Source: Myxococcales bacterium (GTDB lineage Bacteria > Myxococcota_A > UBA9160 > UBA4427). From it: a stretch of DNA of 64,000 bases. The first letter of the stretch is position 1, and every line of letters starts with the position of its first letter. Position numbers and translations under genes: made by a program. The stretch is taken from the NCBI GenBank assembly GCA_014240165.1, contig JAAZXM010000009.1:18624-82623 (forward strand), read 5' to 3'. A model generated the notes under the pieces. The model ran no database searches. It saw nothing but the letters and a program-made list of their open reading frames with translations, and was not told the DNA's origin. Below, piece by piece: positions 4,973 to 39,508 of the stretch.

Positions 4973-6404
4973 TCGATTTCAACGGGGTGCTCGGGCGATT
5001 GGGCTCCTGGTGGCGATCGCCGCGCTGAGCCCGGCGAGTGTCCGAGCCGAGGATCCGTGTATCGCATCGCTTCGCGGAGCCGGTCCCGGGGGTATCGGGG
5101 GTACGGGCTACGGGGAAGCTCCGACGCTCGAGTTGACGACCGCCGGCGCCCCCGAAAGCGGGGGCATCGGCGGCACGGGGCTCCGCGAAGAGGGCGGCAT
5201 CGGGGGCAGCGGCCTTTCGACTGACGGCGGCGAGGAAGAGGGGGGTGTCGGAGGAACGGGGCTCGGGGGCGACGATGCCACCGGGGGCATCGGCGGCACG
5301 GCATGGATCGATGCGAGTTCCGGCATCGGCGGAACCGGGATCTATGGCACGGTCACGGCCTTTGGGAGCCTCTGCGTCAACGGCTATCACGTGGATTTCG
5401 ATCCCGAGATGGCGGTGGAAATCGATGGCGTAGAGCGTTCGGCAAAAGAACTCGCCCTGGGGCAGGTGGTCGAGGCGCGGGTGGTCCCCGGCGAGGGGTC
5501 ACGCCTCACGTTGCGGAGCCTGCGGGCGCGTTCGGCGGTGATTGGGCCCGTGGGGTCCATCGATGCCGAGCGGGGCTCCCTCGTGGTCGCCGGACAGCGA
5601 GTGTCGGTGCCCACCGGTTTTGCGCACGAGAACGCAGGGGCGCTTCGGACCGCGGCCCCCGGCGATTTTGTCGCCGTCAGCGGATTGCGTCGCAACGATG
5701 GGGTGGTGGTGGCCTCCCGAGTCGAGATCCAGCCGGTTCGTTCCGAAGTCAGCGTCGAGGGACCGCTGCGCAGGGGCCCCGATGATGCGCTTTACATTGC
5801 CGGTCTGCGGCTTGAGACCGAAGCGGGTTCGGGGGGTCGCCAGGCTGGCGAGATTGTCCGCGTGCGCGGTCGTCTCGACGCATCGACGGGAACGCTTCAG
5901 CGCGCCCGGGTCGAGGGCGTTCGACGCTTTGCGGGCGATGTGCGGCGGGTTTCTGTGGAAGGCTATGTCGAGCGGCAGGCCGATGGCCGAGCGCGGATCG
6001 GGAGCCGTGTGCTCGATCTCGCCGATCTCCCGGTAGGGAGCGACGGCCCACGCTCGGGGACTCGCATTTTCGTACGCGGCCGACTCAGCGAGGGCGGCGC
6101 GATCCAGGTCGAACGCCTTCGCCTCGATCGCCGACCCCTGGATGCGCCCGAACGTTCCGCCCCGGGTGAGGAGCGCTCCGGCCACGGGTCCGGGGAGGAC
6201 GAGGGGTCTTCGGATGACCGCAGCGACCGCTCTGAAAGATCCGACCGCTCGGACCGCTCGGATCGTTCTGACCGCTCGGATCGTTCTGACCGCCCCGACC
6301 GGCCTGATCGCCCTGACCGCCCCGACCGACCTGACCGTCCTGATCGGCCCGACCGTCCTGAGCGCCCGGAGCGTTCGGGCGGAGGCGGGCGCGGTCCGGG
6401 CTGA
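4962..6404 (+). CDS. Secreted DUF5666-like repeat protein (GGIGGTG repeats, beta-rich middle, (D/E)R(S/P) tail)
   Basis: The ORF runs 4872-6404. The likely start is ATG 4962 (also 4941/4947), giving signal peptide MLIDRFQRGARAIGLLVAIAALSPASVRA. Repeated GxxVxVxG beta modules are compatible with DUF5666. Confidence 0.65.
   Translation: MLIDRFQRGARAIGLLVAIAALSPASVRAEDPCIASLRGAGPGGIGGTGYGEAPTLELTTAGAPESGGIGGTGLREEGGIGGSGLSTDGGEEEGGVGGTGLGGDDATGGIGGTAWIDASSGIGGTGIYGTVTAFGSLCVNGYHVDFDPEMAVEIDGVERSAKELALGQVVEARVVPGEGSRLTLRSLRARSAVIGPVGSIDAERGSLVVAGQRVSVPTGFAHENAGALRTAAPGDFVAVSGLRRNDGVVVASRVEIQPVRSEVSVEGPLRRGPDDALYIAGLRLETEAGSGGRQAGEIVRVRGRLDASTGTLQRARVEGVRRFAGDVRRVSVEGYVERQADGRARIGSRVLDLADLPVGSDGPRSGTRIFVRGRLSEGGAIQVERLRLDRRPLDAPERSAPGEERSGHGSGEDEGSSDDRSDRSERSDRSDRSDRSDRSDRSDRPDRPDRPDRPDRPDRPDRPDRPERPERSGGGGRGPG
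5088..5339 (+). repeat. In-frame glycine-rich GGIGGTG heptad repeats (about 7 copies)
   Basis: Translation shows GGIGGTG, GGIGGTG, GGIGGSG, GGVGGTG, GGIGGTA and GIGGTG separated by acidic linkers. Confidence 0.85.
6216..6377 (+). repeat. 18 tandem 9-bp in-frame units encoding (D/E)R(S/P) tripeptides
   Basis: The DNA reads gac cgc agc / gac cgc tct / gaa aga tcc / gac cgc tcg ... gag cgt tcg. This translates to DRSDRSERSDRS...DRPDRPDRP...ERPERS. Synonymous codons vary between units. Confidence 0.95.
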
Positions 6405-6457: not shown

Positions 6458-8401
6458 TCAGGACGAATCGCCTCGTTCGTTCTCGATCTCTTCCAGCGCG
6501 CGACGCGCGGCGTCGTCGTCGGGGTCCGTCCGTAGGACCTTGCGGAATTCTGCCGCGGCCAACCCGGGTGCGCGGGTTTCGCGGTAACTGAGGGCGAGGT
6601 TGAACCGGGCGTCGCTGTCTTCCGGGTCTTCTTGGAGCACCTCCCGGTAGCCCGCGATCGCCTCTTCGAGTCGGCCGAGGCGACGGAGGGAGTTCGCGAG
6701 GTTGAAGCGGGCGCCCGAGTGCAGGGGGTCGCCCTCCAATACCCTGACGTACGCATCGACGGCCTCGGCATCTCGGCCCAGGGAGGCCAGGGTGGTGCCC
6801 AGGTTGTTGCGCGCCTTGAGGTAGTCGGGGTCGTGGGCGAGGGCTCGGCGGTAGTGCGCGAGTGCTTGCTCGAGATCGCCTGCCTCGGCCGCGTGGGCGC
6901 CCAGGATGAAGTCCAGGTTGGAGTCGCCTTCCAGGTAATCGGTGGCTTTGTGGGCCAGGCGAGCGGCATCGTCACTCTTGCCCGCCCAGCTGAGCACTTT
7001 GGCCAGGTTGCGCAGGGCGATGCCGTGGGCTCGCCGGTCGATGCGATCCATCACCTGCTCGGTGATATCCGACTCTCGCTGGGCCCATCCCGATGCCTGA
7101 AAGTCGATCCAGCCGGCTCGCGACATGGCGTCGAGGATTTCGAGTGCGAGGATCCGATGACCTTCGATGGTGGGGTGAACGTGGTCCAGGAACCAATCCT
7201 CCCCCGCGGCACGGTGCCCCTGTTCGGACATCACCCGGGCCTCGAGCACGGCTTCGAAATCCACCACCGGGACCTGTTCCCGATCCGCCACTTCGCGCAC
7301 GATTTTCGCCATCGGGGAGAGTGCGCGGAGGGGACAGACATCTTCATCCCGTGCTCTGCGGAGATGGGCCTCGGCACCCGAGCCATCTCCCAGGGAAAGC
7401 AGGCTCTGGCCCAGGCCGTATTGGCTTTCGGCATGGCGCGGATCCAGCGCGACCGCCTGGGAAAAGGCCCTTTGTGCGCCAAGGGAATCGCCGGCTTCGA
7501 GCGCTGCCCGGGCGGTCTGCATCGAGTCCCGCCACGCTGCGCGATCCGGGTCATCGTCTGCCAGGGAAGGGGTGCTACGGAAGGGCGAGCAGCCGCGCAG
7601 GTTGGAAGCGGGAACGATCAGAAGCGGTTCCGCGCCAGCGCGGCGGGCGATGCGAATGATTCGCTCGAGGTTGAACCGGTAGTGCTCGAGTACGCGGTCA
7701 CGGAGCAGATCGTCCCGCTCGTAGGCCGACGGGCCGACACTTCCATCGAGCACGGCGGAAACTTCGGCTTGAAGGACCGGCTGAGCCGGATTCGGCTCGC
7801 TCTTCAATACGCCACGCAAGGCTGCATCGATACGGGTACTCCGGAGGAGTGAATCCATGCGCTTGAGCGCGGGGTTGCGATCGCGCAATTCTGCGTAGGT
7901 GCGCTCCTCGAGGAACTCGTTGTGCCCGGTATAGACGACGAAATAATCGGGTTGCTGGCGCGCGAGTTCCTGGGCCAGGGCGGCTACCCGATAACTCGCA
8001 TAGCTGATCCCGCCCGCGTTGATGATCTCCCAGGGAGCGCCGCCGGTTCCCTCCGGAAGAAATGCGCGTAGCCACCCACAGAAAGAGGTGGCATCCGAGT
8101 AGGGTCGGCCGTAGGTGGTGGAGCCTCCGAGGCAGAACACCCTGCGGGTCCCGCTCTTCTTCGTTGCCGAGAAGCTCTGGTAGTTGAAGAAGCGCCGCTT
8201 ATTGTCCGCGGTCTGCCAGATACGCTCGCCCGAGTCGTCGGTCGCTTCAACAAAAAGCGGGATATGCGAAGCAAAGCCGACGTAGGGATCTTCGCGATCG
8301 ATCCGTGCTTCGACGCCCAGAACTTTCAGGGCACCTTCGAGAGCGAGGAAGAAGATCAACCAGACGATGCAGCCAAAGGCGATTTTGCGGGACGTCTTCA
8401 T
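6458..8401 (-). CDS. Membrane-anchored SGNH/GDSL-like hydrolase fused to C-terminal TPR repeats
   Basis: 647 aa. N-terminal TM helix, then RVFCLGGSTTYG (GDS-like block I) and DHVHPT (block V-like DxxH), then several TPR units (AxxxYxxAL..P). Confidence 0.7.
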   Translation of the reverse strand: MKTSRKIAFGCIVWLIFFLALEGALKVLGVEARIDREDPYVGFASHIPLFVEATDDSGERIWQTADNKRRFFNYQSFSATKKSGTRRVFCLGGSTTYGRPYSDATSFCGWLRAFLPEGTGGAPWEIINAGGISYASYRVAALAQELARQQPDYFVVYTGHNEFLEERTYAELRDRNPALKRMDSLLRSTRIDAALRGVLKSEPNPAQPVLQAEVSAVLDGSVGPSAYERDDLLRDRVLEHYRFNLERIIRIARRAGAEPLLIVPASNLRGCSPFRSTPSLADDDPDRAAWRDSMQTARAALEAGDSLGAQRAFSQAVALDPRHAESQYGLGQSLLSLGDGSGAEAHLRRARDEDVCPLRALSPMAKIVREVADREQVPVVDFEAVLEARVMSEQGHRAAGEDWFLDHVHPTIEGHRILALEILDAMSRAGWIDFQASGWAQRESDITEQVMDRIDRRAHGIALRNLAKVLSWAGKSDDAARLAHKATDYLEGDSNLDFILGAHAAEAGDLEQALAHYRRALAHDPDYLKARNNLGTTLASLGRDAEAVDAYVRVLEGDPLHSGARFNLANSLRRLGRLEEAIAGYREVLQEDPEDSDARFNLALSYRETRAPGLAAAEFRKVLRTDPDDDAARRALEEIENERGDSS

Positions 8402-9321: not shown

Positions 9322-9939
9322 TTAAGCGTCACGTCCGGGTCGGTCGACTCGTTCCGGCCTCTCCGGTCGATCCACGCGTTCGGGTCGCTCTACACGTTCG
9401 GGCCTGTCTACACGTTCGGGCCGGTCCACACGTTCGGGCCGGTCCGCACGTTCGGGCCGGTCCGCACGCTCGGGTCGATCGGAGCGCTCAGAACGATCTG
9501 CACGATCCGTGCGATCCGCGCGGGCGGGCTTCTCGCGGGTGCGGGTTCGCTCGGAGATGACCGTGCCATCCTCGGCCGTGCGCACTCGCGTGCGGGTACG
9601 AGTTTCGCTTCCGTCGGGATTTCGCACCCGACTCCGCATGCGCTCGGTCGTCACACCGGTCTGGGTATTCAGCGTTTCTCGGCTCTCGCTTCGGGTCCGG
9701 GTGCCGTCGGCGCTCCGGGTTCGCTCGCGCTCCCGGTGAATGACGAGTTCGTGCTCATGCCCTTCCATGTCCGGTGCGTCGGGCAGATCGGGCGCGTCAG
9801 GCGCGTCAGGCGCGTCCGGGGAGTCGGTCATGTCGGGGCTGTCGCTACTCGACTGCGCTGAGGCCACGATGGGCGCGGCCAGCAAGAGGAAGAGCGCCAC
9901 AGTCAGCGCTCCCAGGAGTTTCAGTGTCGGAGTTGTCAT
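9322..9939 (-). CDS. Secreted low-complexity repeat protein (xPD repeats, R/T/E-rich middle, ER.DRP tail)
   Basis: ATG at 9939 with GAGGA RBS. Signal peptide MTTPTLKLLGALTVALFLLLAAPIVASA. 205 aa. No fold recognised. Confidence 0.6.
   Translation of the reverse strand: MTTPTLKLLGALTVALFLLLAAPIVASAQSSSDSPDMTDSPDAPDAPDAPDLPDAPDMEGHEHELVIHRERERTRSADGTRTRSESRETLNTQTGVTTERMRSRVRNPDGSETRTRTRVRTAEDGTVISERTRTREKPARADRTDRADRSERSDRPERADRPERADRPERVDRPERVDRPERVERPERVDRPERPERVDRPGRDA
9337..9519 (-). repeat. In-frame 9/18-bp tandem repeats encoding ADRTDRADRSERSDRPERADRPERVDRPER...
   Basis: The plus strand shows repeated cacgttcgggccggtcc units (18-bp period), which is the complement of (P)ER(V/A)DR(P) codons. 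Confidence 0.9.
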
Positions 9940-30919: not shown

Positions 30920-31402
30920 TCAGGCGTAGACGGCTCGGGTCAGCCAGTCGGCCACCAGGGCGGGCTTGTCCTGGCCATCGATCTCGATCGTCATGGTTCG
31001 GGTCTGCTGGATGGCATTGCCCTTGAGTTCAACCTTCGAAAGCAGGCTATGGGCTCGAATGCGGCTACCGACTTTGACCGGGCTCACGAAGCGGACCTTT
31101 TCGAAGCCGTAGTTGACTCCCATCACGATACCCTCGAAACGCTTGGGGTCGGGGTTCTCTGGGTTGGCGGAGGCTCCAAGGTGCGTGAGTAGTGAAAGGG
31201 TCAAGAAGCCGTGGGCGATGGTGGTTCCGAAGGGCGTCGCCTTGGCTTTTTCGGGATCGACGTGAATGAATTGGTGGTCCAGGGTCACATCTGCGAATTG
31301 GTCGATGATGTCCTGATTGATCTCCATCCATTCGCCTGTGGCGGTTTCCTTGCCCTCGACTTCCCTGAAGAGAGCAAATGCTTTTTCTGCGTTTTCTGAC
31401 AT
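30920..31402 (-). CDS. MaoC-like (R)-specific enoyl-CoA hydratase / hot-dog dehydratase
   Basis: 160 aa. FADVTLDHQFIHVDPEKA...TIAHGFLTLSL motif. Confidence 0.85.
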   Translation of the reverse strand: MSENAEKAFALFREVEGKETATGEWMEINQDIIDQFADVTLDHQFIHVDPEKAKATPFGTTIAHGFLTLSLLTHLGASANPENPDPKRFEGIVMGVNYGFEKVRFVSPVKVGSRIRAHSLLSKVELKGNAIQQTRTMTIEIDGQDKPALVADWLTRAVYA

Positions 31403-31477
31403 GAGGGTGTTCCTTCTTTCGTTCGTTCACTGCCCGTAGTCGGGCGCTGGGGAGTGGGGCTCGCTTGTCGGCGAGTT

Positions 31478-31759
31478 CTAGAGTTCCTCGACGTAGATGA
31501 TCTCTGGGCGCCCGGCCAGCAAGTCGCCAAACTCGGCGTTCTTGGATGCCAGGTTCTTCCCATGGATCGCAAACGCTTCGTCGCTCTCGTATTTCTCGTA
31601 AAAGGTAAAGGTGGTCGGATCCTCTTTGTGTTGATGCGGGATATAGGCGAGGGTGCCCGACTCGTTGGCGAGAGTTTCGGCGGAAAGTTTTTTCAGAAAG
31701 CTCTTTGCTTCTTCGATTTTCTCTTCCTTGACTCGAATTGTTGCAATCACGCTCGGCAT
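31478..31759 (-). CDS. ABM-domain (antibiotic biosynthesis monooxygenase-like) protein
   Basis: 93 aa. Ferredoxin-like ABM pattern (IATIRVKEE...F..YE.Y.SDEAF..H). Confidence 0.7.
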   Translation of the reverse strand: MPSVIATIRVKEEKIEEAKSFLKKLSAETLANESGTLAYIPHQHKEDPTTFTFYEKYESDEAFAIHGKNLASKNAEFGDLLAGRPEIIYVEEL

Positions 31760-31786
31760 CGACTTCTCCTTCTGTGGTCGAAGTGT

Positions 31787-33550
31787 CTACTCACTGACTA
31801 GTTGTTCCCTGACGAAGTCCCGATAGTAGTCGGAGTGGCTCATCAGGTCTTCGTGTCTGCCCTCGGCAATGACTTCACCTTCCTGGATCGCGATGACGCG
31901 GTCGGTATCGACAATCGTAGACAGGCGATGTGAGACGATGATGATAGTGGGTTTTGAAGGTAGTTGGCGCAAGGATTCCTTGACCAAAGCTTCGCCCTTG
32001 GAGTCGAGAGCGGCAGTGGCTTCGTCGAGAATCAATACGGCCGGATTTCGCAGGACTGCCCGCGCGATGGCGATGCGTTGGCGCTGCCCGCTGGAGAAGA
32101 GTCTTCCGCTATCTCCCACGTTCGTATCGAAACCCTCGGAGAGTTCCCCGATGAATCCATCGGCGTGCGCGACTTTGGCGGCGGCAGCGACTTCGAGATC
32201 AGAGGCTTCGGGCTTGCCGTAGCGGATATTGTCGGCCACGCTGCATGAGAAGAGGGTGGCTTCCGGGGGGACAAGTGTGATGTGCTCTCGCAGCCACTCG
32301 GTGTCGAGGGTGCCGAGGTCCCTCCCGTCCAGAAGCACTCTTCCGCTATCGGGTTCGTAGAGTCGCGCGATCAATTTGGCCACGGTGGATTTTCCGCAAC
32401 CCGAGCTACCCACCAGGGAGACCACCTCGCCGGGAGCGATTTTCAGCTTGATTCCTTGGAGAGCGGCTGCGTCACGGCGCGTAGGATAAGCGAAGGAAAC
32501 CGCGTCCAACTCCACCGCGCCCTCGACTGCGTCGGGCTTGATGCCGCCGATATAGGGCATTCGGCTCTGGCGCTCGCCGAGCTCGAAGATGCGTTGAGTG
32601 GCGCCCTGGGCTCGCAAAACCTCGGCCCCGGCATTCGCCACATTCCTCGAGGATCGCATGACCAGCGTCGCGTAGAGGATGAAAGTGACCAGCGCACCCG
32701 CCGTGAGGTTCTGACTCGAGATCAAGACAGCGCCAACGAATATGGCCAGAACCACGGCCCCCTCACTCAGGAGCTCGGTGAAGGAGCGGAGCAGGGAATG
32801 GCCGTGTACCTGCTGTTTGGCGGCATCGATCAATTTGTCCGCCGAAAGGTCGTAGCTTTCCGAGGCCTTGGCTTCCTGGTGGTAGACCCGAACAGTGAGG
32901 ATGCCGTTGAGCACTTCGATGACCGAACTCATGAGCGTGGAGGTTCGCGACTGAACCTCTGTTGCCTGGGCCCGAAGGAGACTGCCCAGCCGCGACGAGC
33001 CAAACCAGATAATGGGACCGATCACGATCACCACCGCGGCCAGGGGAGGCGAGGTATAGATCATCAAGCCGGCGGCGCAGACACCCATCAGGCCGAAGTG
33101 AATCAGTTGCGGCGCCAGGAGTTGCAGGGTGTGGCCCAATTGGCTGACGTCACCGACCAGCCTCGCCGTGAGGTCGCCCGTATTCTGCTCGTCGAAGAAG
33201 CCGAGTTCGTGGTTGATCACGCGACCGAAGACCCAGCCTCGAATCGCGGCGGAAACCTGTTGTGCGCCGATCTCCAGCAGGTAGTTGCGGTAGTAGGTAG
33301 AAATGGACTGGACCACCAATAGCCCAGCCATGATCGTGACCCAGTAGTTGACCTCTCCCATATCGCCTTGTTGGATGCCCCGGTCTACGACGATGCGAAT
33401 CATCTGGGGATAGGCGAGGGTAGTACTCAGGGTGAGCAGGTCGAAGAAGATGCCGCCCAAATAGGTGCCCCGGCGCTGGGCGAGGAACGGCTTGAGGCGT
33501 AGCCAAAAGGCGCGAAGGCTCCTTGCGTCAGGCAATCCTTCTTCTGCCAT
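31787..33550 (-). CDS. ABC exporter, fused permease/ATPase (MsbA-like)
   Basis: 587 aa. Six-TM domain, Walker A GSSGCGKST, signature FSSGQRQR and Walker B ILILDEAT. Confidence 0.9.
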   Translation of the reverse strand: MAEEGLPDARSLRAFWLRLKPFLAQRRGTYLGGIFFDLLTLSTTLAYPQMIRIVVDRGIQQGDMGEVNYWVTIMAGLLVVQSISTYYRNYLLEIGAQQVSAAIRGWVFGRVINHELGFFDEQNTGDLTARLVGDVSQLGHTLQLLAPQLIHFGLMGVCAAGLMIYTSPPLAAVVIVIGPIIWFGSSRLGSLLRAQATEVQSRTSTLMSSVIEVLNGILTVRVYHQEAKASESYDLSADKLIDAAKQQVHGHSLLRSFTELLSEGAVVLAIFVGAVLISSQNLTAGALVTFILYATLVMRSSRNVANAGAEVLRAQGATQRIFELGERQSRMPYIGGIKPDAVEGAVELDAVSFAYPTRRDAAALQGIKLKIAPGEVVSLVGSSGCGKSTVAKLIARLYEPDSGRVLLDGRDLGTLDTEWLREHITLVPPEATLFSCSVADNIRYGKPEASDLEVAAAAKVAHADGFIGELSEGFDTNVGDSGRLFSSGQRQRIAIARAVLRNPAVLILDEATAALDSKGEALVKESLRQLPSKPTIIIVSHRLSTIVDTDRVIAIQEGEVIAEGRHEDLMSHSDYYRDFVREQLVSE

Positions 33551-35342: not shown

Positions 35343-35762
35343 TCAGTTCTCAGCGATCGCGATCGCGTCGATTTCGACTTGAGCGCCCAGTGGAAGGGCG
35401 GCTACGCCAACCGTGGCGCGTGCGGGTGCCGGGTCGCCACGAAAGTATCGTGCGTAGACTTCATTGACTCTTGGAAAGAGGGACAGGTCGGTGAGATAGA
35501 CCGTTGACCGGACGACACGGTCCAGCGAACTTCCCCCTTCCTTCAGGACAGCCGCCAGGTTCTCGATCACCCTTTCGGTCTGCGCTTCCACGGGTCCTTC
35601 CACGAGCTTACCGGTGGCCGGGTCGAGAGGAATCTGCCCAGAGGCGAAGAGCCAAGGGCCGCAGACTACGGCTTGGGAATAAGGCCCGACGGGTTCCGGG
35701 GCCAGTTTACTCCGGATGGCGCTGATCTCGCTGGAAGAAGAGTCAGCTCGGGCTGACGTCAA
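35343..35762 (-). CDS. ridA: RidA-family reactive enamine/imine deaminase
   Basis: APEPVGPYSQAVV..LFASGQIPLDP...RATVGVAALPLGAQVEIDAIA. Confidence 0.9.
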   Translation of the reverse strand: MTSARADSSSSEISAIRSKLAPEPVGPYSQAVVCGPWLFASGQIPLDPATGKLVEGPVEAQTERVIENLAAVLKEGGSSLDRVVRSTVYLTDLSLFPRVNEVYARYFRGDPAPARATVGVAALPLGAQVEIDAIAIAEN

Positions 35763-35988
35763 TCTTTTCTTCCAGTGAGCGCAGCAGGTAGCCGATCAAC
35801 ATCAGGTTCGGGAGTTGCTCTCGGACGGAAGACGACATAACCGCACCCCGAGCGAACTTCGAACTGTACTCAAGAAAGAATTCAAGGACTTCCAAGCTGA
35901 CGTTGGCCGCCAAAACCTGATTCATTTGCTCCGTGTCGAGTTCGTCGAAAATCTCGGAAAACTCCCACGAAAGTTCCTCAAATGTCAT
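35743..35988 (-). CDS. Small acidic hypothetical protein (81 aa) of atypically low GC
   Basis: ATG 35988 is preceded by GGGGGG 7 nt upstream. Coding-like periodicity and an acidic helical sequence. Overlaps the ridA start by 20 nt. No family recognised. Confidence 0.4.
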   Translation of the reverse strand: MTFEELSWEFSEIFDELDTEQMNQVLAANVSLEVLEFFLEYSSKFARGAVMSSSVREQLPNLMLIGYLLRSLEEKIDVSPS

Positions 35989-36338
35989 TTGTCAGCCCCC
36001 CGCTCATGATTTCACCCTCTCGAATTCCCTGCGTGTCCTCTATGTCCACTGTGAACTTCTTGCTTTCGTTCGTAATGGCTCTTAAGAAGTTTTGATCCTG
36101 GCTTTTCGAAAGTCTTTCCAAACGGTTGAAGTCGCTCGTCGTATTCGTGGCTGGATTGAATTGTGTTGCTCTTTCGATTCAGTCGTTCGTGCGACGAATT
36201 TTGGTTCTATTTTCAAGAGATCATTTAGATATGGAGATTGTGAATCGCTTCGGGCAACAGGTACTGCTTGACTTGGACAACGCGAAATGGCCCAACTGCA
36301 CACTCTCTGTCGCGGCACTCTGTATCGATGGCTGGTCT

Positions 36339-36377
36339 GTCGATTGCTTTCGTCGATTGCTTTCGTCGATTGCTTTC
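36339..36377. repeat. Perfect 3 x 13-bp tandem repeat GTCGATTGCTTTC
   Basis: Read directly: 36339-36351, 36352-36364 and 36365-36377 are identical. Confidence 0.95.
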
Positions 36378-36485
36378 CTTGCCGAAATTAAGTTCGACGG
36401 TCCAACGATCAATGATGCCTGTTGCCAACCAGGGTTCGTATCTCTGGGTTCTCTTATGACCCCAACCCTTAAAAGCTCTCTAGGT

Positions 36486-36549
36486 CTCTTGACCTCTTGA
36501 CCTCTTGACTGATCTCTTGACCTCTTGAGCTCTTGGCTGATCTCTTGGC
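36486..36549. repeat. Seven copies of the 8-bp unit CTCTTGAC (variants ..GAG, ..GGC) organised as 28-bp higher-order units
   Basis: tCTCTTGAC CTCTTGAC CTCTTGAC tga / tCTCTTGAC CTCTTGAG CTCTTGGC tga / tCTCTTGGC. Each unit carries a TTGAC (-35-like) core. Confidence 0.95.
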
Positions 36550-36910
36550 GAACCTCTAACTTCTGTTTGTTTGGTTGACTCCTCTACTGTCAGGTTCGCA
36601 GGGTGTTTTATTTATGGTTCAACTCTGAGGAGGAATCACTTAATCATAGTGACCGAAAGCAACTTCAATGTCAACGTAACCATATGATGTGGGTGTAAGC
36701 TCTGTTGCGATTTAAGTGTATTTGATCGGTAAGAGTTGAGTGCGAGAACTTCACGAGCGCGTTTGACTCAAGTTGCTCAAATCCGAGAAGCAAATTTTTG
36801 CTGAGTGTTCATGGAAGCTTCCAGCTGAAGTTGCCCACCACTTGCCGGCAGGTTCAGGTCGAGTGCAACTCGATTCGTATTTCTTCAGGTTTTCTTGAGG
36901 CTGAAAAATG

Positions 36911-36987
<77 letters not shown>

Positions 36988-37141
36988 ACTGGCGGCGAAG
37001 TATGACGCCTTCTTGCCATCCCCTCAACCGAAAGCGAGCCGAGTTGGTTGTGGATTCATTTTTATCCAAGGGCAGATAGCGCCATAGCGGCTGAATTCGA
37101 CGTCTGGACTAGAATCCGCCTCGTCTCGTTGGAGGCGGGCA

Positions 37142-39508
37142 TTGACAGATTCCCTTGAAGCCGGAGTCACCCTGGGGATTGCGCTATTGGCGCTTTCCTC
37201 CCTTGTTCTGGCCTACAGACCGCGCTGGGTCGTCCTTCATCCTAAATGGGTGCTGGTCGCGCTGGCGTTGACCACGATTGGGTCCCTGAGCGCTCTCTTT
37301 GAGCCTGATCCTGTCGGGCTTCGTCTTCGAATCGACCCCTCCAGCGAGCCGCTTCTGGCTCGGGGCGACCCCGCCGCGGATCTGTATCGAGGAGCCGTTC
37401 GTGACTTCGGTCACGACGAAGTCTTCTCGGTCGCGTTGGTGTGCGAGGAAGTCTTTTCCGTTGACTGCCTCTCTACCCTCGACCGAATCTCGAGTCGTCT
37501 TGCGCGGCTGGATGGGGTTCGAAGTATTTCGAGCCTGGTGGACGCGACCTCTCTTCGTTGGGTCGAGGCCGATGATTGGATCGAGATCAGGCCCTTCATC
37601 AAAGAAGTTCCGCAAGATGAGCCCACCCTGGCTGAACTGCGCTCCAGGGCCCTGGCGGATGTTGTCTACAAGCACACGCTGGTCTCAGGCAACGCTGAGG
37701 CCGCAGCATTGAACGTTGCCTTTCAGAAAATGGACGATGCTCTTTTCTTGGCTTCCGGACTCGATGCCTCGATTACGGAAATAGTGCGAGAAGAAATATT
37801 GCCGGGTCAGGCCTTCCACGTGGCAGGCAGGCCCCATGTCAAGGTTCACGTTTATCGTGGGATCGTTCGTGACCTCTTGCTCTTGATTCCCCTGGCGATT
37901 TTGGTGATGAGCGCGGTCCTCTGGCTTTTCGTTCGCAATATTTGGGGTGTGCTCCTGCCATTGGGGACGGCGCTGACCGCGAATCTATGGACCTTCGGCG
38001 CGATGGCGGCTTCCGGGGAGCAGTTGACGCTTTTGACGGGCCTATTGGGACCCCTGCTTCTGGCCATGGGGAGCGTGTATGGGGTTCACGTGGTCACGCG
38101 CTATGAGGAGCAGGTCGCGTTTTCAGCCTCGTCAATCGAGGCGGCGACTCGCGCCCTTGAAGAAATCAGGTTGCCCGCGCTGATCGCGGGGCTGACCACA
38201 TTGATCGGGTTTGCTGCGCTTTTGATCACCGATGTCCCGGCGGTTTTTCAACTGGGTCTCTTCGCCATGCTGGGAATCGCCTCCAGCACATTCCTGGCCC
38301 TGGTTGGAATCCCCGCTGTTCTCGCCATGCTTCCGTTTCCGGGGCGCAGCGAAGGATCCGAAAACAACCCGCAAAGCGTCGATAGCGGTGCGTTGGATCG
38401 TCTTCTGGTCGCCCTGGCGGGAGGGGTGGCCCGTTTCTCGGGTCCCGCCATCGGTGCGTGGATTCTTCTCGGATTGGCGTCCCTGATTGCGCTTCCCCAT
38501 ACGGAAGTGGACACCGACTATCTCTCGTATTTCGCCGAAGACGATCCCCTTCGTCAGGATTTTGATGCCATCAACCGATTATTGGCCGGGGTTGTGCCGA
38601 TCTATGTCGTGATCGACGGTCAGGGCGGGGGCAGCTTTCGCGAGCCGGCATTGGCAAAGGCGGTCGCTGCGCTTGAGGAGCGCCTCGCCGCGCTGCCGGC
38701 GGTGAGCCGAACGCTCTCATCCAACGACATGCTGGGCCAGTTGAACAGGGCCTTTCAGGGGGATAATCCCAAAGAAGAGCGGGTGCCCGATACCCGGGCG
38801 GCCATCACGGAATTGCTCTTCATGCTTCCAAAGGACGATCTGAGCCCCTTTCTCACCGTCGATCATGGCCGTGCCAACGTCATCGCGCGAACGGGTGTCG
38901 TGGGGTCGTCGGCAGTGCTCGAACTCGAGCGTCAGATGCAAGAGGTTCTCGACGAAAGCCCGCTGCCCCAGGGCGCCCAGGCGCGGCTCACTGGGAACGC
39001 GATTCTGCTCGCGCATAGTGCCGATGCCATTACGCGTTCGCAGCCTCGGAGCGTCGGGATCGCTGCTTTGGCGATCTTCTTGCTGATCAGCATTGCGCTG
39101 CGGTCACCGCGCATGGGTGCCGTTGCGATGATCCCAAACCTGGTCCCGGTATTGATCTTTTTCGGGCTCCTGGGGGCCGGGCTCGCCCCGCTGTCCTTGC
39201 CCGTCAGCCTGATCGGATGCATGGCCCTGGGCATTGCCATCGACGACAGCGTGCATTTCCTGGTTCGTTACCGGCGGGAGCGGCAGCGAGGGGCGCATCC
39301 CGTGGAGGCGGCGGAGCTCTGCAGTCGGCGGGTGGGGCGCCCCGTTGCGATCACCTCGGTGATGCTCTGCCTGGGCTTCCTCGTGGTGACGGGCTCCCGG
39401 TTCGCCACATTGCAGGAGTTCGGTCTGCTCTCGGCCCTGACCATGGGGGTTTGCCTGGCGACGGACTTGATCCTGCTTCCCGCGGTGCTGATCCGTCTGC
39501 GCGCGTGA
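37142..39508 (+). CDS. RND-superfamily / MMPL-type exporter (HpnN-like, two 6-TM bundles)
   Basis: 788 aa. Two periplasmic loops alternate with TM bundles carrying SSD-like segments (GIAIDDSVHFL). TTG start. Confidence 0.75.
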   Translation: MTDSLEAGVTLGIALLALSSLVLAYRPRWVVLHPKWVLVALALTTIGSLSALFEPDPVGLRLRIDPSSEPLLARGDPAADLYRGAVRDFGHDEVFSVALVCEEVFSVDCLSTLDRISSRLARLDGVRSISSLVDATSLRWVEADDWIEIRPFIKEVPQDEPTLAELRSRALADVVYKHTLVSGNAEAAALNVAFQKMDDALFLASGLDASITEIVREEILPGQAFHVAGRPHVKVHVYRGIVRDLLLLIPLAILVMSAVLWLFVRNIWGVLLPLGTALTANLWTFGAMAASGEQLTLLTGLLGPLLLAMGSVYGVHVVTRYEEQVAFSASSIEAATRALEEIRLPALIAGLTTLIGFAALLITDVPAVFQLGLFAMLGIASSTFLALVGIPAVLAMLPFPGRSEGSENNPQSVDSGALDRLLVALAGGVARFSGPAIGAWILLGLASLIALPHTEVDTDYLSYFAEDDPLRQDFDAINRLLAGVVPIYVVIDGQGGGSFREPALAKAVAALEERLAALPAVSRTLSSNDMLGQLNRAFQGDNPKEERVPDTRAAITELLFMLPKDDLSPFLTVDHGRANVIARTGVVGSSAVLELERQMQEVLDESPLPQGAQARLTGNAILLAHSADAITRSQPRSVGIAALAIFLLISIALRSPRMGAVAMIPNLVPVLIFFGLLGAGLAPLSLPVSLIGCMALGIAIDDSVHFLVRYRRERQRGAHPVEAAELCSRRVGRPVAITSVMLCLGFLVVTGSRFATLQEFGLLSALTMGVCLATDLILLPAVLIRLRA

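What the first reader, a model, noticed from the sequence alone, without database searches (positions are those of the whole stretch)
35743..36910. AT-rich, ORF-poor island abutting the 3' end of tRNA-Pro(CGG)
GC content drops sharply here, by eye to roughly 45% against about 68% in flanking genes. The span runs from the small ORF at 35743 to the tRNA-Pro 3' end at 36911. About 920 bp (35989-36910) have no convincing ORF: the listed 60-124 aa ORFs have odd composition and overlap each other. The span contains two unrelated tandem-repeat arrays plus a hairpin TCGAGT-gca-ACTCGA (about 36859-36873) followed by a T-rich tract. tRNA 3' ends are classic integration sites. A weak partial copy of the tRNA T-arm segment (CTGGATT-GAA, 36151-36160, versus CTGGATTCGAA in the tRNA) might be a degenerate att remnant. 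No integrase is present. The island could therefore be a decayed integrated element, a regulatory or iteron region, or the locus of an unannotated non-coding RNA.
Basis: partly seen in the sequence, partly recalled or inferred. Interest (0 to 1): 0.55.

Follow-up and report, generated by a model that had tools for sequence, protein, structure and literature searches.

The report
Native promoter and long leader, not island
The AT-rich, gene-free 0.9 kb next to tRNA-Pro is not a decayed mobile element but a native intergenic region, found at the same place in related marine Myxococcota, that carries a conserved promoter and a fast-evolving, repeat-accumulating probable leader for a small conserved gene; it is largely ordinary.

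Summary
Window 35989-36910 has 46% GC, the deepest trough in the 64 kb. It has no conserved ORF, two tandem arrays, a hairpin, and abuts the 3' end of tRNA-Pro(CGG).

The island reading fails. In every related Myxococcota locus long enough to show it, bar one (L026), tRNA-Pro, an intergenic spacer and an 81-aa gene (orf81; family of 921 homologues or more) lie in the same order and on the same strand. There is no integrase within about 10 kb. There is no phage or plasmid similarity. The att-like match is at chance level.

One sigma70-like promoter is conserved in most of the 25 lineages aligned: TTGACA-17-CACTAT, minus strand, 36674..36646, with a conserved upstream box. It sits 202-288 nt from the tRNA and points at orf81. 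The distance from promoter to ATG is 35-390 nt in relatives and about 650 nt here.

This presumed leader evolves at or above the synonymous rate. It picks up different tandem duplications in different lineages. Both window arrays are missing from a 96%-identical sister lineage, and one array varies in copy number within the species.

A conserved 5' CCUCCUCAG may pair with orf81's Shine-Dalgarno region; this is a hypothesis with weak support here. No Rfam family matches. Interest is low.

The parts
35743..35988 (-). orf81: 81-aa acidic, four-helix protein of unknown function. It is the gene served by the region and overlaps the downstream RidA gene by 20 nt.
   Evidence: Homologues of 45-96% identity at the same position in all related loci. 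Family of 921 proteins at E<=1e-3, all unnamed and without Pfam domains. AF2 pLDDT 80, four helices. No PDB fold match. GC3 0.67 as in neighbours.
35989..36639 (-). Predicted 5' leader of orf81, about 650 nt, GC 0.47. It evolves fast and is rich in indels and repeats.
   Evidence: The only sigma70-like candidate in the whole intergenic region, on either strand, is the conserved one at 36674. No intrinsic terminator on the minus strand inside it. Divergence from the sister lineage is 0.22-0.26 against 0.069 at 4-fold sites, with indels that are not multiples of 3. Fold z-score -2.87. The transcript itself is inferred, not shown.
35996..36007 (-). Shine-Dalgarno region of orf81: the G6 run at 36001..35996 and the preceding AUGAGC. 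It is the predicted partner of the 5' CCUCCUCA motif. The AUG at 36007 also opens a 9-codon uORF (36007..35978).
   Evidence: Read from the sequence. Pairing seen in the MFE and ensemble. UGAG plus a G-run co-occurs with the 5' CUCA motif in the window, L033, L040, L012 and L049/L055.
36339..36377 (-). Tandem array, 13 nt x 3 (GAAAGCAAUCGAC in the transcript sense). A lineage-specific duplication.
   Evidence: TRF 100% match. The segment 36331-36395 is absent in sister lineage L032-L036. One SNP in copy 2 in L001/L003.
36485..36547 (-). Tandem array, 8 nt x about 7 (GUCAAGAG in the transcript sense). A lineage-specific expansion that is copy-number polymorphic.
   Evidence: The segment 36450-36550 is absent in the sister lineage. 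L001 and L003 (99% identical, different samples) lack one unit, 36486-36493. L005 and L007 have a single CCAAGAG at the aligned place.
36625..36633 (-). CCUCCUCAG motif about 6-14 nt after the predicted transcription start (about 36639). Candidate anti-Shine-Dalgarno element.
   Evidence: Conserved in the window, L012, L013, L014, L016 and L049/L055, with variants in L033, L015 and L040; the rest of the leaders is mostly unalignable between these lineages. 9-13 expected pairs with the SD region in the ensemble. In the window it is not the best duplex partner of the SD (rank 35/113).
36646..36674 (-). Conserved sigma70-type promoter of orf81: -35 TTGACA (36674..36669), 17-nt spacer, -10 CACTAT (36651..36646).
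   Evidence: A TTGACA/TTGACT hexamer is aligned in all 25 lineages compared. A CAnnAT-type -10 (often TGnCAGGAT) follows at 17 nt in most of them. The hexamer lies 202-288 nt from the tRNA 3' end. Function is inferred from conservation. The tool's strict E. coli-type scan does not call it.
36682..36698 (-). Conserved box just upstream of the -35: TTACA-N4-CAYCATAT. Candidate regulator-binding site.
   Evidence: Conserved in the closer clade: window, L033, L040, L005, L007, L009, L012-L016. The box plus -35 is unique in the 64 kb, with 0 expected by chance. The binding factor is unknown.
36701..36910 (-). tRNA-Pro trailer and spacer. It contains a U5 run right after the tRNA (36908..36904), a hairpin (36857-36875) and a conserved GCAACU (36834..36829).
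   Evidence: T-runs follow the tRNA within 5-40 nt in relatives. A GCAAC-type motif about 80-110 nt from the tRNA recurs in most lineages. The spacer length is conserved. There is no excess folding energy (z 0.11). Divergence from the sister lineage is 0.10-0.13.
36911..36987 (-). tRNA-Pro(CGG).
   Evidence: ARAGORN and Rfam RF00005, 64 bits. Identical in the sister lineage.

Best explanation
The span is the native intergenic control region between tRNA-Pro(CGG) and a small conserved gene, orf81. Both are on the minus strand. The order on that strand is as follows.

1. The tRNA, with a U-run and hairpin trailer.
2. A spacer of about 210 nt.
3. A conserved upstream box and a sigma70-type promoter (TTGACA-17-CACTAT, 36674..36646).
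4. An untranslated leader of about 650 nt.
5. orf81, which overlaps ridA by 20 nt and so probably forms an operon with it.

Only the promoter, a pyrimidine motif at the 5' end of the leader (CCUCCUCAG) and the Shine-Dalgarno region are under evident constraint. The leader body evolves at or above the synonymous rate. It has low GC, gains and loses segments, and accumulates short tandem duplications, probably by replication slippage. This accounts for the low GC, the lack of ORFs and the two 'unrelated' arrays.

The likely mode of action is that the 5' CCUCCUCA pairs across the whole leader with UGAGCGGGGGG at the ribosome-binding site. This would hold orf81 translation down until something opens the helix.

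Shown: conserved position and synteny, promoter conservation, lineage-specific and polymorphic repeats, the divergence rates, and the absence of mobile-element marks. Inferred: that the promoter fires, that the 650 nt is transcribed as one leader, and the clamp.
For: Synteny: tRNA-Asn, GreA, CPBP, (RidA), orf81, intergenic region, tRNA-Pro, MMPL in four Myxococcota MAG genomes. tRNA-Pro lies upstream of orf81 on the same strand wherever a contig reaches it.

Intergenic length: 313-666 nt in relatives and 922 nt here. GC is also depressed in the closer clade, at 0.44-0.54.

Promoter: a TTGACA/TTGACT hexamer is aligned in 25 lineages, with a CAnnAT-type -10 at 17 nt in most, at a conserved distance from the tRNA. 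It is the only candidate in the region on either strand. The upstream box is unique in the window.

Sister lineage (orf81 96% identical): both arrays are absent and it has its own duplication. 4-fold divergence is 0.069 against 0.22-0.26 in the leader, 0.10 in the promoter and 0.10-0.13 in the spacer. Two other pairs give a leader rate about equal to the 4-fold rate.

Repeats: tandem repeats of different units occur in the leaders of seven lineages. There is an 8-nt unit copy-number polymorphism within the species. The periods, 8 and 13, are not multiples of 3, unlike all the other arrays in the window.

Clamp: the MFE and ensemble pair the 5' motif with the SD in the window, L033 and L012-L016. 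The CUCA/UGAG extension co-occurs. Leader fold z-scores are -0.8 to -2.9, all negative.

Not foreign.
Against: There are no transcript data, so the start site and the continuity of the leader are inferred.

The -10 hexamer is weak by E. coli rules, and the tool's strict scan finds no promoter.

The clamp is weak in the window itself. The G-rich SD can pair equally well with many leader segments (rank 35/113; 23% of shuffles do as well). The motif is absent from the L005/L007/L052 and L009/L045 lineages. Pairing of pyrimidine runs with purine runs tolerates G-U, so there is no clean covariation.

Other short intergenic regions nearby keep 0.56-0.64 GC, so 'intergenic' alone does not explain 0.46. 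The AT-drift test had too few polarisable changes (8 GC>AT against 3 AT>GC).

The window/sister leader rate is three times the synonymous rate, which neutrality alone does not explain. Recombination or selection on synonymous sites could contribute.
Confidence: 0.6

Rival explanations
1. The conserved promoter drives a separate non-coding RNA, or several, that ends within the region. orf81 is then expressed from an unrecognised proximal promoter. The repeats could give such an RNA multiple binding sites for a protein or another RNA.
For: 650 nt is very long for a bacterial leader. The fold z-score is -2.87. Repeated motifs recur in many lineages. The L049/L055 lineage has a second TTGACA-17-AATATG only 18 nt before the ATG, so proximal promoters can arise here.
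Against: In distant relatives the same promoter sits 35-130 nt from the ATG, so it is orf81's promoter there. There is no minus-strand terminator in the leader and no second promoter candidate in the window. The repeat units share no motif across lineages and are absent from the sister lineage. The body of the region evolves at a neutral rate or faster. No Rfam match.
Confidence: 0.17
2. The region is a decayed integrative element (phage or genomic island remnant) inserted at the 3' end of tRNA-Pro, with CTGGATT-GAA as an att remnant.
For: It is adjacent to a tRNA 3' end, has low GC and lacks ORFs.
Against: The same arrangement occurs in related lineages down to 44% orf81 identity. The putative 'element' would contain the promoter that is conserved at a fixed distance from the tRNA. 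The att-like match is at chance level. No integrase nearby. No phage or plasmid hit. orf81 GC3 is native. The sister intergenic region has the same GC without the arrays.
Confidence: 0.03
3. The tandem arrays are DNA-level protein-binding sites (iterons, operator arrays or an origin) rather than by-products of slippage.
For: CTCTTGAC carries a TTGAC core repeated about 7 times. A perfect 13-mer is repeated 3 times. The region is AT-rich.
Against: Both arrays are missing in the sister lineage, where orf81, the promoter and all neighbours are intact. Copy number varies within the species. Other lineages have unrelated units. There are no DnaA boxes, no GC-skew switch, no rep gene, and no further copies in the window.
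Confidence: 0.04
4. A sigma54-type promoter on the + strand, about 105 nt from the tRNA, drives transcription towards MMPL or a short antisense RNA that stops at the 36857-36875 hairpin.
For: TGG-N8-TTGCA occurs at the homologous place in L005, L007 and L008/L028/L030. The GTTGC core is conserved in most lineages. The + strand hairpin with a T-rich tail lies just downstream.
Against: The window, its sister lineage and L040 lack the essential GG at -24. Such a transcript would run antisense through tRNA-Pro.
Confidence: 0.04

Closest known systems
Long regulatory 5' leaders that mask their own ribosome-binding site, such as the E. coli rpoS leader, which is opened by the small RNAs DsrA, RprA and ArcZ (general knowledge; only lists papers on the rpoS leader and DsrA, none of which was read)
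   Same: A leader of several hundred nt. An upstream leader segment is predicted to pair with the Shine-Dalgarno region. The promoter and the pairing segments are conserved while the rest is free to vary.
   Different: There is no sequence or family relationship and no Rfam match. The pairing here would span the entire leader, from about +10 to about -10 of the ATG. No trans-acting opener is known. The masking is only predicted, and for the window it is statistically weak.
tRNA-gene-associated genomic islands and prophage remnants
   Same: The region is adjacent to the 3' end of a tRNA gene and has lower GC than its surroundings.
   Different: It has no integrase, no direct repeat of the tRNA 3' end above chance and no mobile-element similarity. 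It is present at the same place in all related lineages that could be checked.
CsrB/RsmZ-type protein-sponge RNAs (general knowledge)
   Same: A non-coding stretch with reiterated short motifs whose number differs between lineages.
   Different: The window's repeat units (GAAAGCAAUCGAC and GUCAAGAG) contain no GGA. The repeat units differ completely between lineages and are missing in the sister lineage. No Rfam hit.
Simple-sequence contingency loci (phase-variable repeats; general knowledge)
   Same: A short tandem repeat with copy-number polymorphism in natural populations, lying between a promoter and a start codon.
   Different: The repeat lies in the leader body, not between the -35 and -10 or in a reading frame. 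A one-unit change therefore has no obvious on/off effect. The array is absent in the sister lineage.

Membership tests
tRNA-integrated genomic island or prophage remnant | Integrase or recombinase gene, or a remnant of one, next to the tRNA | tested here: not met
   The neighbours are ABC transporter, GreA, CPBP, RidA, orf81, MMPL, Rpe, RsmB, Fmt and PriA. ORFs within the region have no PHROG or Pfam hits.
tRNA-integrated genomic island or prophage remnant | Direct repeat of the tRNA 3' segment (attL/attR) bounding the insert | tested here: not met
The best direct local match scores 9.
tRNA-integrated genomic island or prophage remnant | Insert absent from the same tRNA site in related genomes | tested here: not met
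   The region and orf81 are present between tRNA-Pro and the CPBP/RidA genes in every related locus in which the tRNA is seen.
tRNA-integrated genomic island or prophage remnant | Foreign composition or codon usage, or similarity to mobile elements | tested here: not met
   orf81 GC3 is 0.67 against 0.66-0.74 in neighbours. No blastn match in the phage or plasmid collections.
Replication origin or iteron region | Conserved iterons or DnaA boxes, an adjacent initiator gene and a skew switch | tested here: not met
   No DnaA box in the region. The arrays are absent in the sister lineage. Cumulative GC skew rises through the window with no switch at this locus. No rep or dnaA gene nearby.
Any curated RNA family (Rfam 15) | A covariance-model match at or near the gathering score | tested here: not met
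   Only the tRNA matches. The best other hit is a chance hit of 13.9 bits, E=2.6.
Sigma70-type promoter | -35 and -10 hexamers at 16-18 nt spacing, conserved in orthologous positions and upstream of a gene on the same strand | tested here: met
   TTGACA-17-CACTAT in the window. The -35 is aligned in 25 lineages, with CAnnAT-type -10 hexamers in most. Activity itself cannot be tested here.
RBS-masking long leader (rpoS-like mode of action) | An upstream leader segment base-pairs with the Shine-Dalgarno or start region, and this is conserved across relatives | tested here: inconclusive
   9-13 expected pairs in 7 lineages and about 0 in 3. The 5' end is the top-ranked duplex partner in L012, L013, L014 and L016, but ranks 35/113 in the window. 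The CUCA/UGAG motifs co-occur.
RBS-masking long leader (rpoS-like mode of action) | The leader is transcribed as one RNA with the gene, and translation responds to opening of the helix | not testable with these tools
   This needs RNA-seq or 5'-RACE and reporter assays.
CsrB/RsmZ-type sponge RNA | Many GGA-containing motifs in hairpin loops, conserved across relatives | tested here: not met
   The units are GAAAGCAAUCGAC and GUCAAGAG. Other lineages have unrelated units. No Rfam hit.

The most novel reading that the evidence does not exclude
The tRNA-Pro/orf81 spacer encodes a previously undescribed long cis-regulatory RNA of marine Myxococcota. A conserved 5' anti-Shine-Dalgarno motif clamps the ribosome-binding site across a leader of 220-650 nt. 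The leader body is kept long but is free to vary, and repeated independent tandem duplications, polymorphic in nature, tune the length or stability of the clamp and hence the output of a widespread small protein of unknown function.
Probability: 0.12. Interest if true: 0.45.

Novelty: new member of a known kind. Interest (0 to 1): 0.2.

Why it matters
The main value is as a correction. Low GC next to a tRNA looks like an island, but comparative data show a native control region. The low GC, the missing ORFs and the repeats are best read as relaxed constraint plus replication slippage. This is a useful caution for island finders in high-GC genomes.

There are two minor positive points. First, the work defines a conserved promoter and the gene it serves: a family of 921 or more small Myxococcota proteins with no annotation. 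Second, it flags an unusually long, fast-evolving leader with a testable RBS-masking motif.

Tried and rejected
- Rfam at gathering and permissive thresholds found only tRNAs and SRP RNA.
- The strict sigma70 scan found no promoter. The conserved one has a weak -10 hexamer.
- blastn of the region against phage and plasmid collections gave no match.
- The att-remnant match is at chance level.
- There are no DnaA boxes.
- Neither repeat array has further copies elsewhere in the window.
- A sigma54 promoter on the + strand fits L005, L007 and L008/28/30 but not the window.
- The tRNA-distal spacer has no excess structure (z 0.11).
- orf81 function could not be assigned: no Pfam, NCBIfam, PHROG or PADLOC hit, no PDB sequence hit and no Foldseek PDB hit.
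- An exact look-up of the window's MMPL protein, meant to find more same-species contigs, returned nothing.
- Polarised substitution counts to test AT-biased drift gave too few sites: 8 against 3.
- The first z-score script timed out and was re-run.
- The duplex rank test of the clamp gave a mixed result and was negative for the window itself.
Full report
**Observation.**
- The sequence at 35400-37300 and the composition profiles confirm a sharp GC trough. 35989-36910 is 46.3% GC against 64.2% for the window. The 900-nt window 36001-36900 is the lowest of all such windows in the 64 kb (0.462; next lowest 0.546).
- The immediate flanks are 0.59-0.62 in genes and 0.56-0.64 in short intergenic regions.
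- ARAGORN and Rfam place tRNA-Pro(CGG) on the minus strand at 36911-36987.
- TRF finds a perfect 13-nt x3 array at 36339-36377 and an 8-nt x about 7 array at 36485-36547.
- The hairpin at 36857-36875, with a T-rich tail on the + strand, is found by the terminator scan.
- The mechanical ORFs inside the region have no family matches.

**It is not an insertion.**
- A scan of one genome per species with the neighbouring MMPL protein returned four Myxococcota MAG loci, L005-L008. All four carry tRNA-Asn, GreA, a CPBP/Rce1-like protease, an orf81 homologue, an intergenic region, tRNA-Pro(CGG) and MMPL in the same order. RidA is present only in the two closer ones.
- A metagenome scan with an orf81 alignment gave 23 more loci. 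Wherever a contig reaches far enough, tRNA-Pro(CGG) lies upstream of orf81 on the same strand. The one exception is L026, where no tRNA lies within 3.5 kb upstream. Further lineages fetched by exact protein look-up agree.
- The intergenic length is 313-666 nt in relatives (one outlier, L021, has 1498 nt) and 922 nt here. In the closer clade its GC is also depressed, at 0.44-0.54 against 0.58-0.65 for the locus.
- orf81 is a real gene. Its homologues are 45-96% identical. The family has 921 proteins at E<=1e-3, all 'hypothetical' and without a Pfam domain. Its GC3 of 0.67 matches its neighbours (0.66-0.74). Its total GC is about 10 points below the locus in every lineage, which reflects amino-acid composition.
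- There is no integrase or transposase among the larger ORFs scanned within about 10 kb.
- There is no similarity to phage or plasmid records.
- The CTGGATT-GAA 'att remnant' is matched or beaten in 75% of dinucleotide shuffles.

**What is conserved inside the region.** Aligning the intergenic regions in the orientation of orf81 shows one sharply conserved block.
- It reads TTACA-N4-CAYCATAT-N7-TTGACA-N17-CAnnAT. In the window this is TTACACCCACATCATATGGTTACG TTGACA TTGAAGTTGCTTTCGGT CACTAT, with the -35 at 36674..36669 and the -10 at 36651..36646 on the minus strand.
- A TTGACA or TTGACT hexamer is aligned in all 25 lineages compared. A CAnnAT-type -10 follows at 17 nt in most of them, often as TGnCAGGAT, which is an extended -10.
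- Its distance from the tRNA 3' end is nearly constant at 202-288 nt.
- Its distance to the orf81 ATG is 35-130 nt in most distant lineages, 220-390 nt in the closer clade and about 650 nt in the window.
- Under a relaxed rule it is the only sigma70-like candidate in the 922 bp on either strand.
- The upstream box plus -35 is unique in the 64 kb, with 0 expected by chance.
- I therefore read it as orf81's promoter, and 36639..35989 as a leader that has grown in this lineage.
- Immediately after the tRNA there is a U5 run (36908..36904). Relatives also have T-runs within 5-40 nt. This is plausibly the tRNA terminator (inference).

**How the leader evolves.**
- A sister lineage (L032-L036; orf81 96% identical) aligns across the whole region. 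Both tandem arrays are absent there (gaps at 36450-36550 and 36331-36395). The sister has its own duplication of about 15-25 nt near 36215-36235.
- Divergence at 622 four-fold sites of five flanking genes is 0.069.
- In the intergenic region, divergence is 0 in the tRNA, 0.05 in the MMPL-tRNA spacer, 0.10-0.13 in the tRNA-distal spacer, 0.10 in the promoter block and 0.22-0.26 in the leader. The leader indels (1, 3, 5, 7, 14, 25 nt and so on) would break every listed ORF.
- Two other sister pairs give a leader divergence about equal to the four-fold divergence: 0.29 against 0.30, and 0.10 against 0.10.
- The leader body is therefore essentially unconstrained in sequence. The threefold excess in the window/sister pair is unexplained; recombination or selection on synonymous sites may contribute.
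- Within the species, contigs from two other samples (L001, L003; 99% identical) lack one CTCTTGAC unit. They also carry an extra T between the Shine-Dalgarno region and the ATG.
- TRF finds tandem repeats of unrelated units (periods 11-16) in the leaders of L012, L013, L015, L016, L033 and L039 as well.
- The window's other arrays all have periods that are multiples of 3; I did not check whether they lie in genes. The two arrays in this region have periods of 8 and 13.
- The sister's intergenic region has the same GC (0.461) without the arrays, so the arrays do not cause the trough.
- This fits relaxed constraint. It may also fit the AT-biased mutation reported for bacteria (title of PMC2936535, found; the paper was not read) together with replication slippage. 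My own polarised count was too small to test the bias (8 GC>AT against 3 AT>GC).

**A possible mechanism in the leader.**
- About 6-14 nt after the predicted transcription start lies CCUCCUCAG (36633..36625). It is conserved in the window, L012, L013, L014, L016 and L049/L055, with variants in L033, L015 and L040. Most of the rest of the leaders cannot be aligned between these lineages.
- The MFE structure of the 661-nt RNA pairs AUUCCUCCUCA with UGAGCGGGGGGCU at the ribosome-binding site (z -2.87, confirmed).
- The partition function gives 9-13 expected pairs between the first 40 nt and the SD region in the window, L033, L012, L013, L014, L015 and L016. It gives about 0 in L005, L007 and L009, which lack the motif.
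- Lineages with the 5' CUCA also have UGAG plus a G-run at the SD. Those without it have AAAGGGGG-type SDs.
- Against this, the 5' end of the window is only the 35th best of 113 duplex partners of its G-rich SD, and 23% of shuffles do as well. It ranks first in L012, L013, L014 and L016.
- Leader z-scores in the eight lineages tested are -0.8 to -2.9.
- I treat the clamp as a reasonable but unproven hypothesis. The nearest functional analogue is the RBS-masking rpoS leader (general knowledge; only located papers on that topic). This is a resemblance in mode of action, not family membership.

**Other readings.**
- A separate non-coding RNA cannot be excluded without transcript data. It is disfavoured because the same promoter abuts orf81 in distant lineages, there is no minus-strand terminator in the leader, the sequence evolves neutrally, and the repeat units are not shared.
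- Iterons or an origin are excluded by the absence of the arrays in the sister lineage, the polymorphism, the lack of DnaA boxes and the absence of a GC-skew switch at this locus.
- A sigma54-like TGG-N8-TTGCA on the + strand, about 105 nt from the tRNA, is present in L005, L007 and L008/28/30. The window lacks the GG.

**orf81.** AlphaFold2 with 59 homologues gives a four-helix protein (pLDDT 80). Foldseek finds no PDB match. There is no sequence hit in the PDB, NCBIfam, PHROGs or PADLOC. Its function remains unknown.

**Verdict.** The region is a native control region consisting of a tRNA trailer, a conserved promoter and a long, unconstrained, repeat-accumulating probable leader. It is a new instance of a known kind of feature, and of low general interest. 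The modest open questions are the RBS-masking motif and the unusually fast leader evolution.

Noticed in passing
window 35978-36007 (minus strand): A 9-codon uORF (AUG AGC GGG GGG CUG ACA AAU GAC AUU UGA, MSGGLTNDI) with its own SD-like GAGGG overlaps the orf81 start. In the sister lineage, in L007, and in the L001/L003/L004 alleles (extra T at 35988-35990), the uORF ends in an AUGA overlap with the orf81 AUG. This is the classic arrangement for translational coupling. In L005 the upstream AUG is in frame with orf81.
   Followed up: partly
window 35721-35785 (minus strand hairpin 35757..35742): A terminator-like hairpin (GUCAGC-CCGA-GCUGAC followed by UCUUCUUCC) and a 22-nt inverted repeat sit at the orf81 stop and RidA start overlap. 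The hairpin is identical in the sister lineage. It may be an attenuator between orf81 and ridA.
   Followed up: no
L005 about 7658-7673, L007 about 7592-7607, and L008/L028/L030 (about 105 nt from the tRNA-Pro 3' end, on the strand opposite to orf81): A sigma54-like TGG-N8-TTGCA is present in these relatives at the site of the conserved GTTGC motif (window 36829-36834). The window, L033 and L040 lack the GG.
   Followed up: partly
window 35989-36639 compared with L033: Leader divergence of 0.22-0.26 is about three times the 4-fold-site divergence (0.069) of the flanking genes. In two other sister pairs the two rates are equal. This may be a recombination import or local acceleration.
   Followed up: partly
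L001 and L003 (ends at window 36572): Two independent assemblies of the same species break at exactly the same position inside the leader. This suggests strain heterogeneity or a coverage or assembly problem there.
   Followed up: no
L049, L050, L055-L057 (18 nt upstream of the orf81 ATG): This lineage has a second TTGACA-17-AATATG promoter-like site right next to the start codon, in addition to the conserved distal promoter.
   Followed up: no
L021 2003-3500: One GC-rich relative has 1498 nt (GC 0.68) between tRNA-Pro and orf81. That is long enough to hold an extra gene.
   Followed up: no
window 31051-31950: This is the second-deepest GC trough of the window (0.546). It lies at and beside the 3' end of the ABC transporter gene (31787-33550, minus strand).
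   Followed up: no
window 6225-6367 and 9371-9474: Long tandem arrays with periods of 9/18/27 and 18 nt (multiples of 3), possibly repeats within protein-coding genes.
   Followed up: no
L006, L008, L028-L030: The more distant lineages lack the RidA gene between orf81 and the CPBP gene, so the orf81-ridA pairing is clade-specific.
   Followed up: partly
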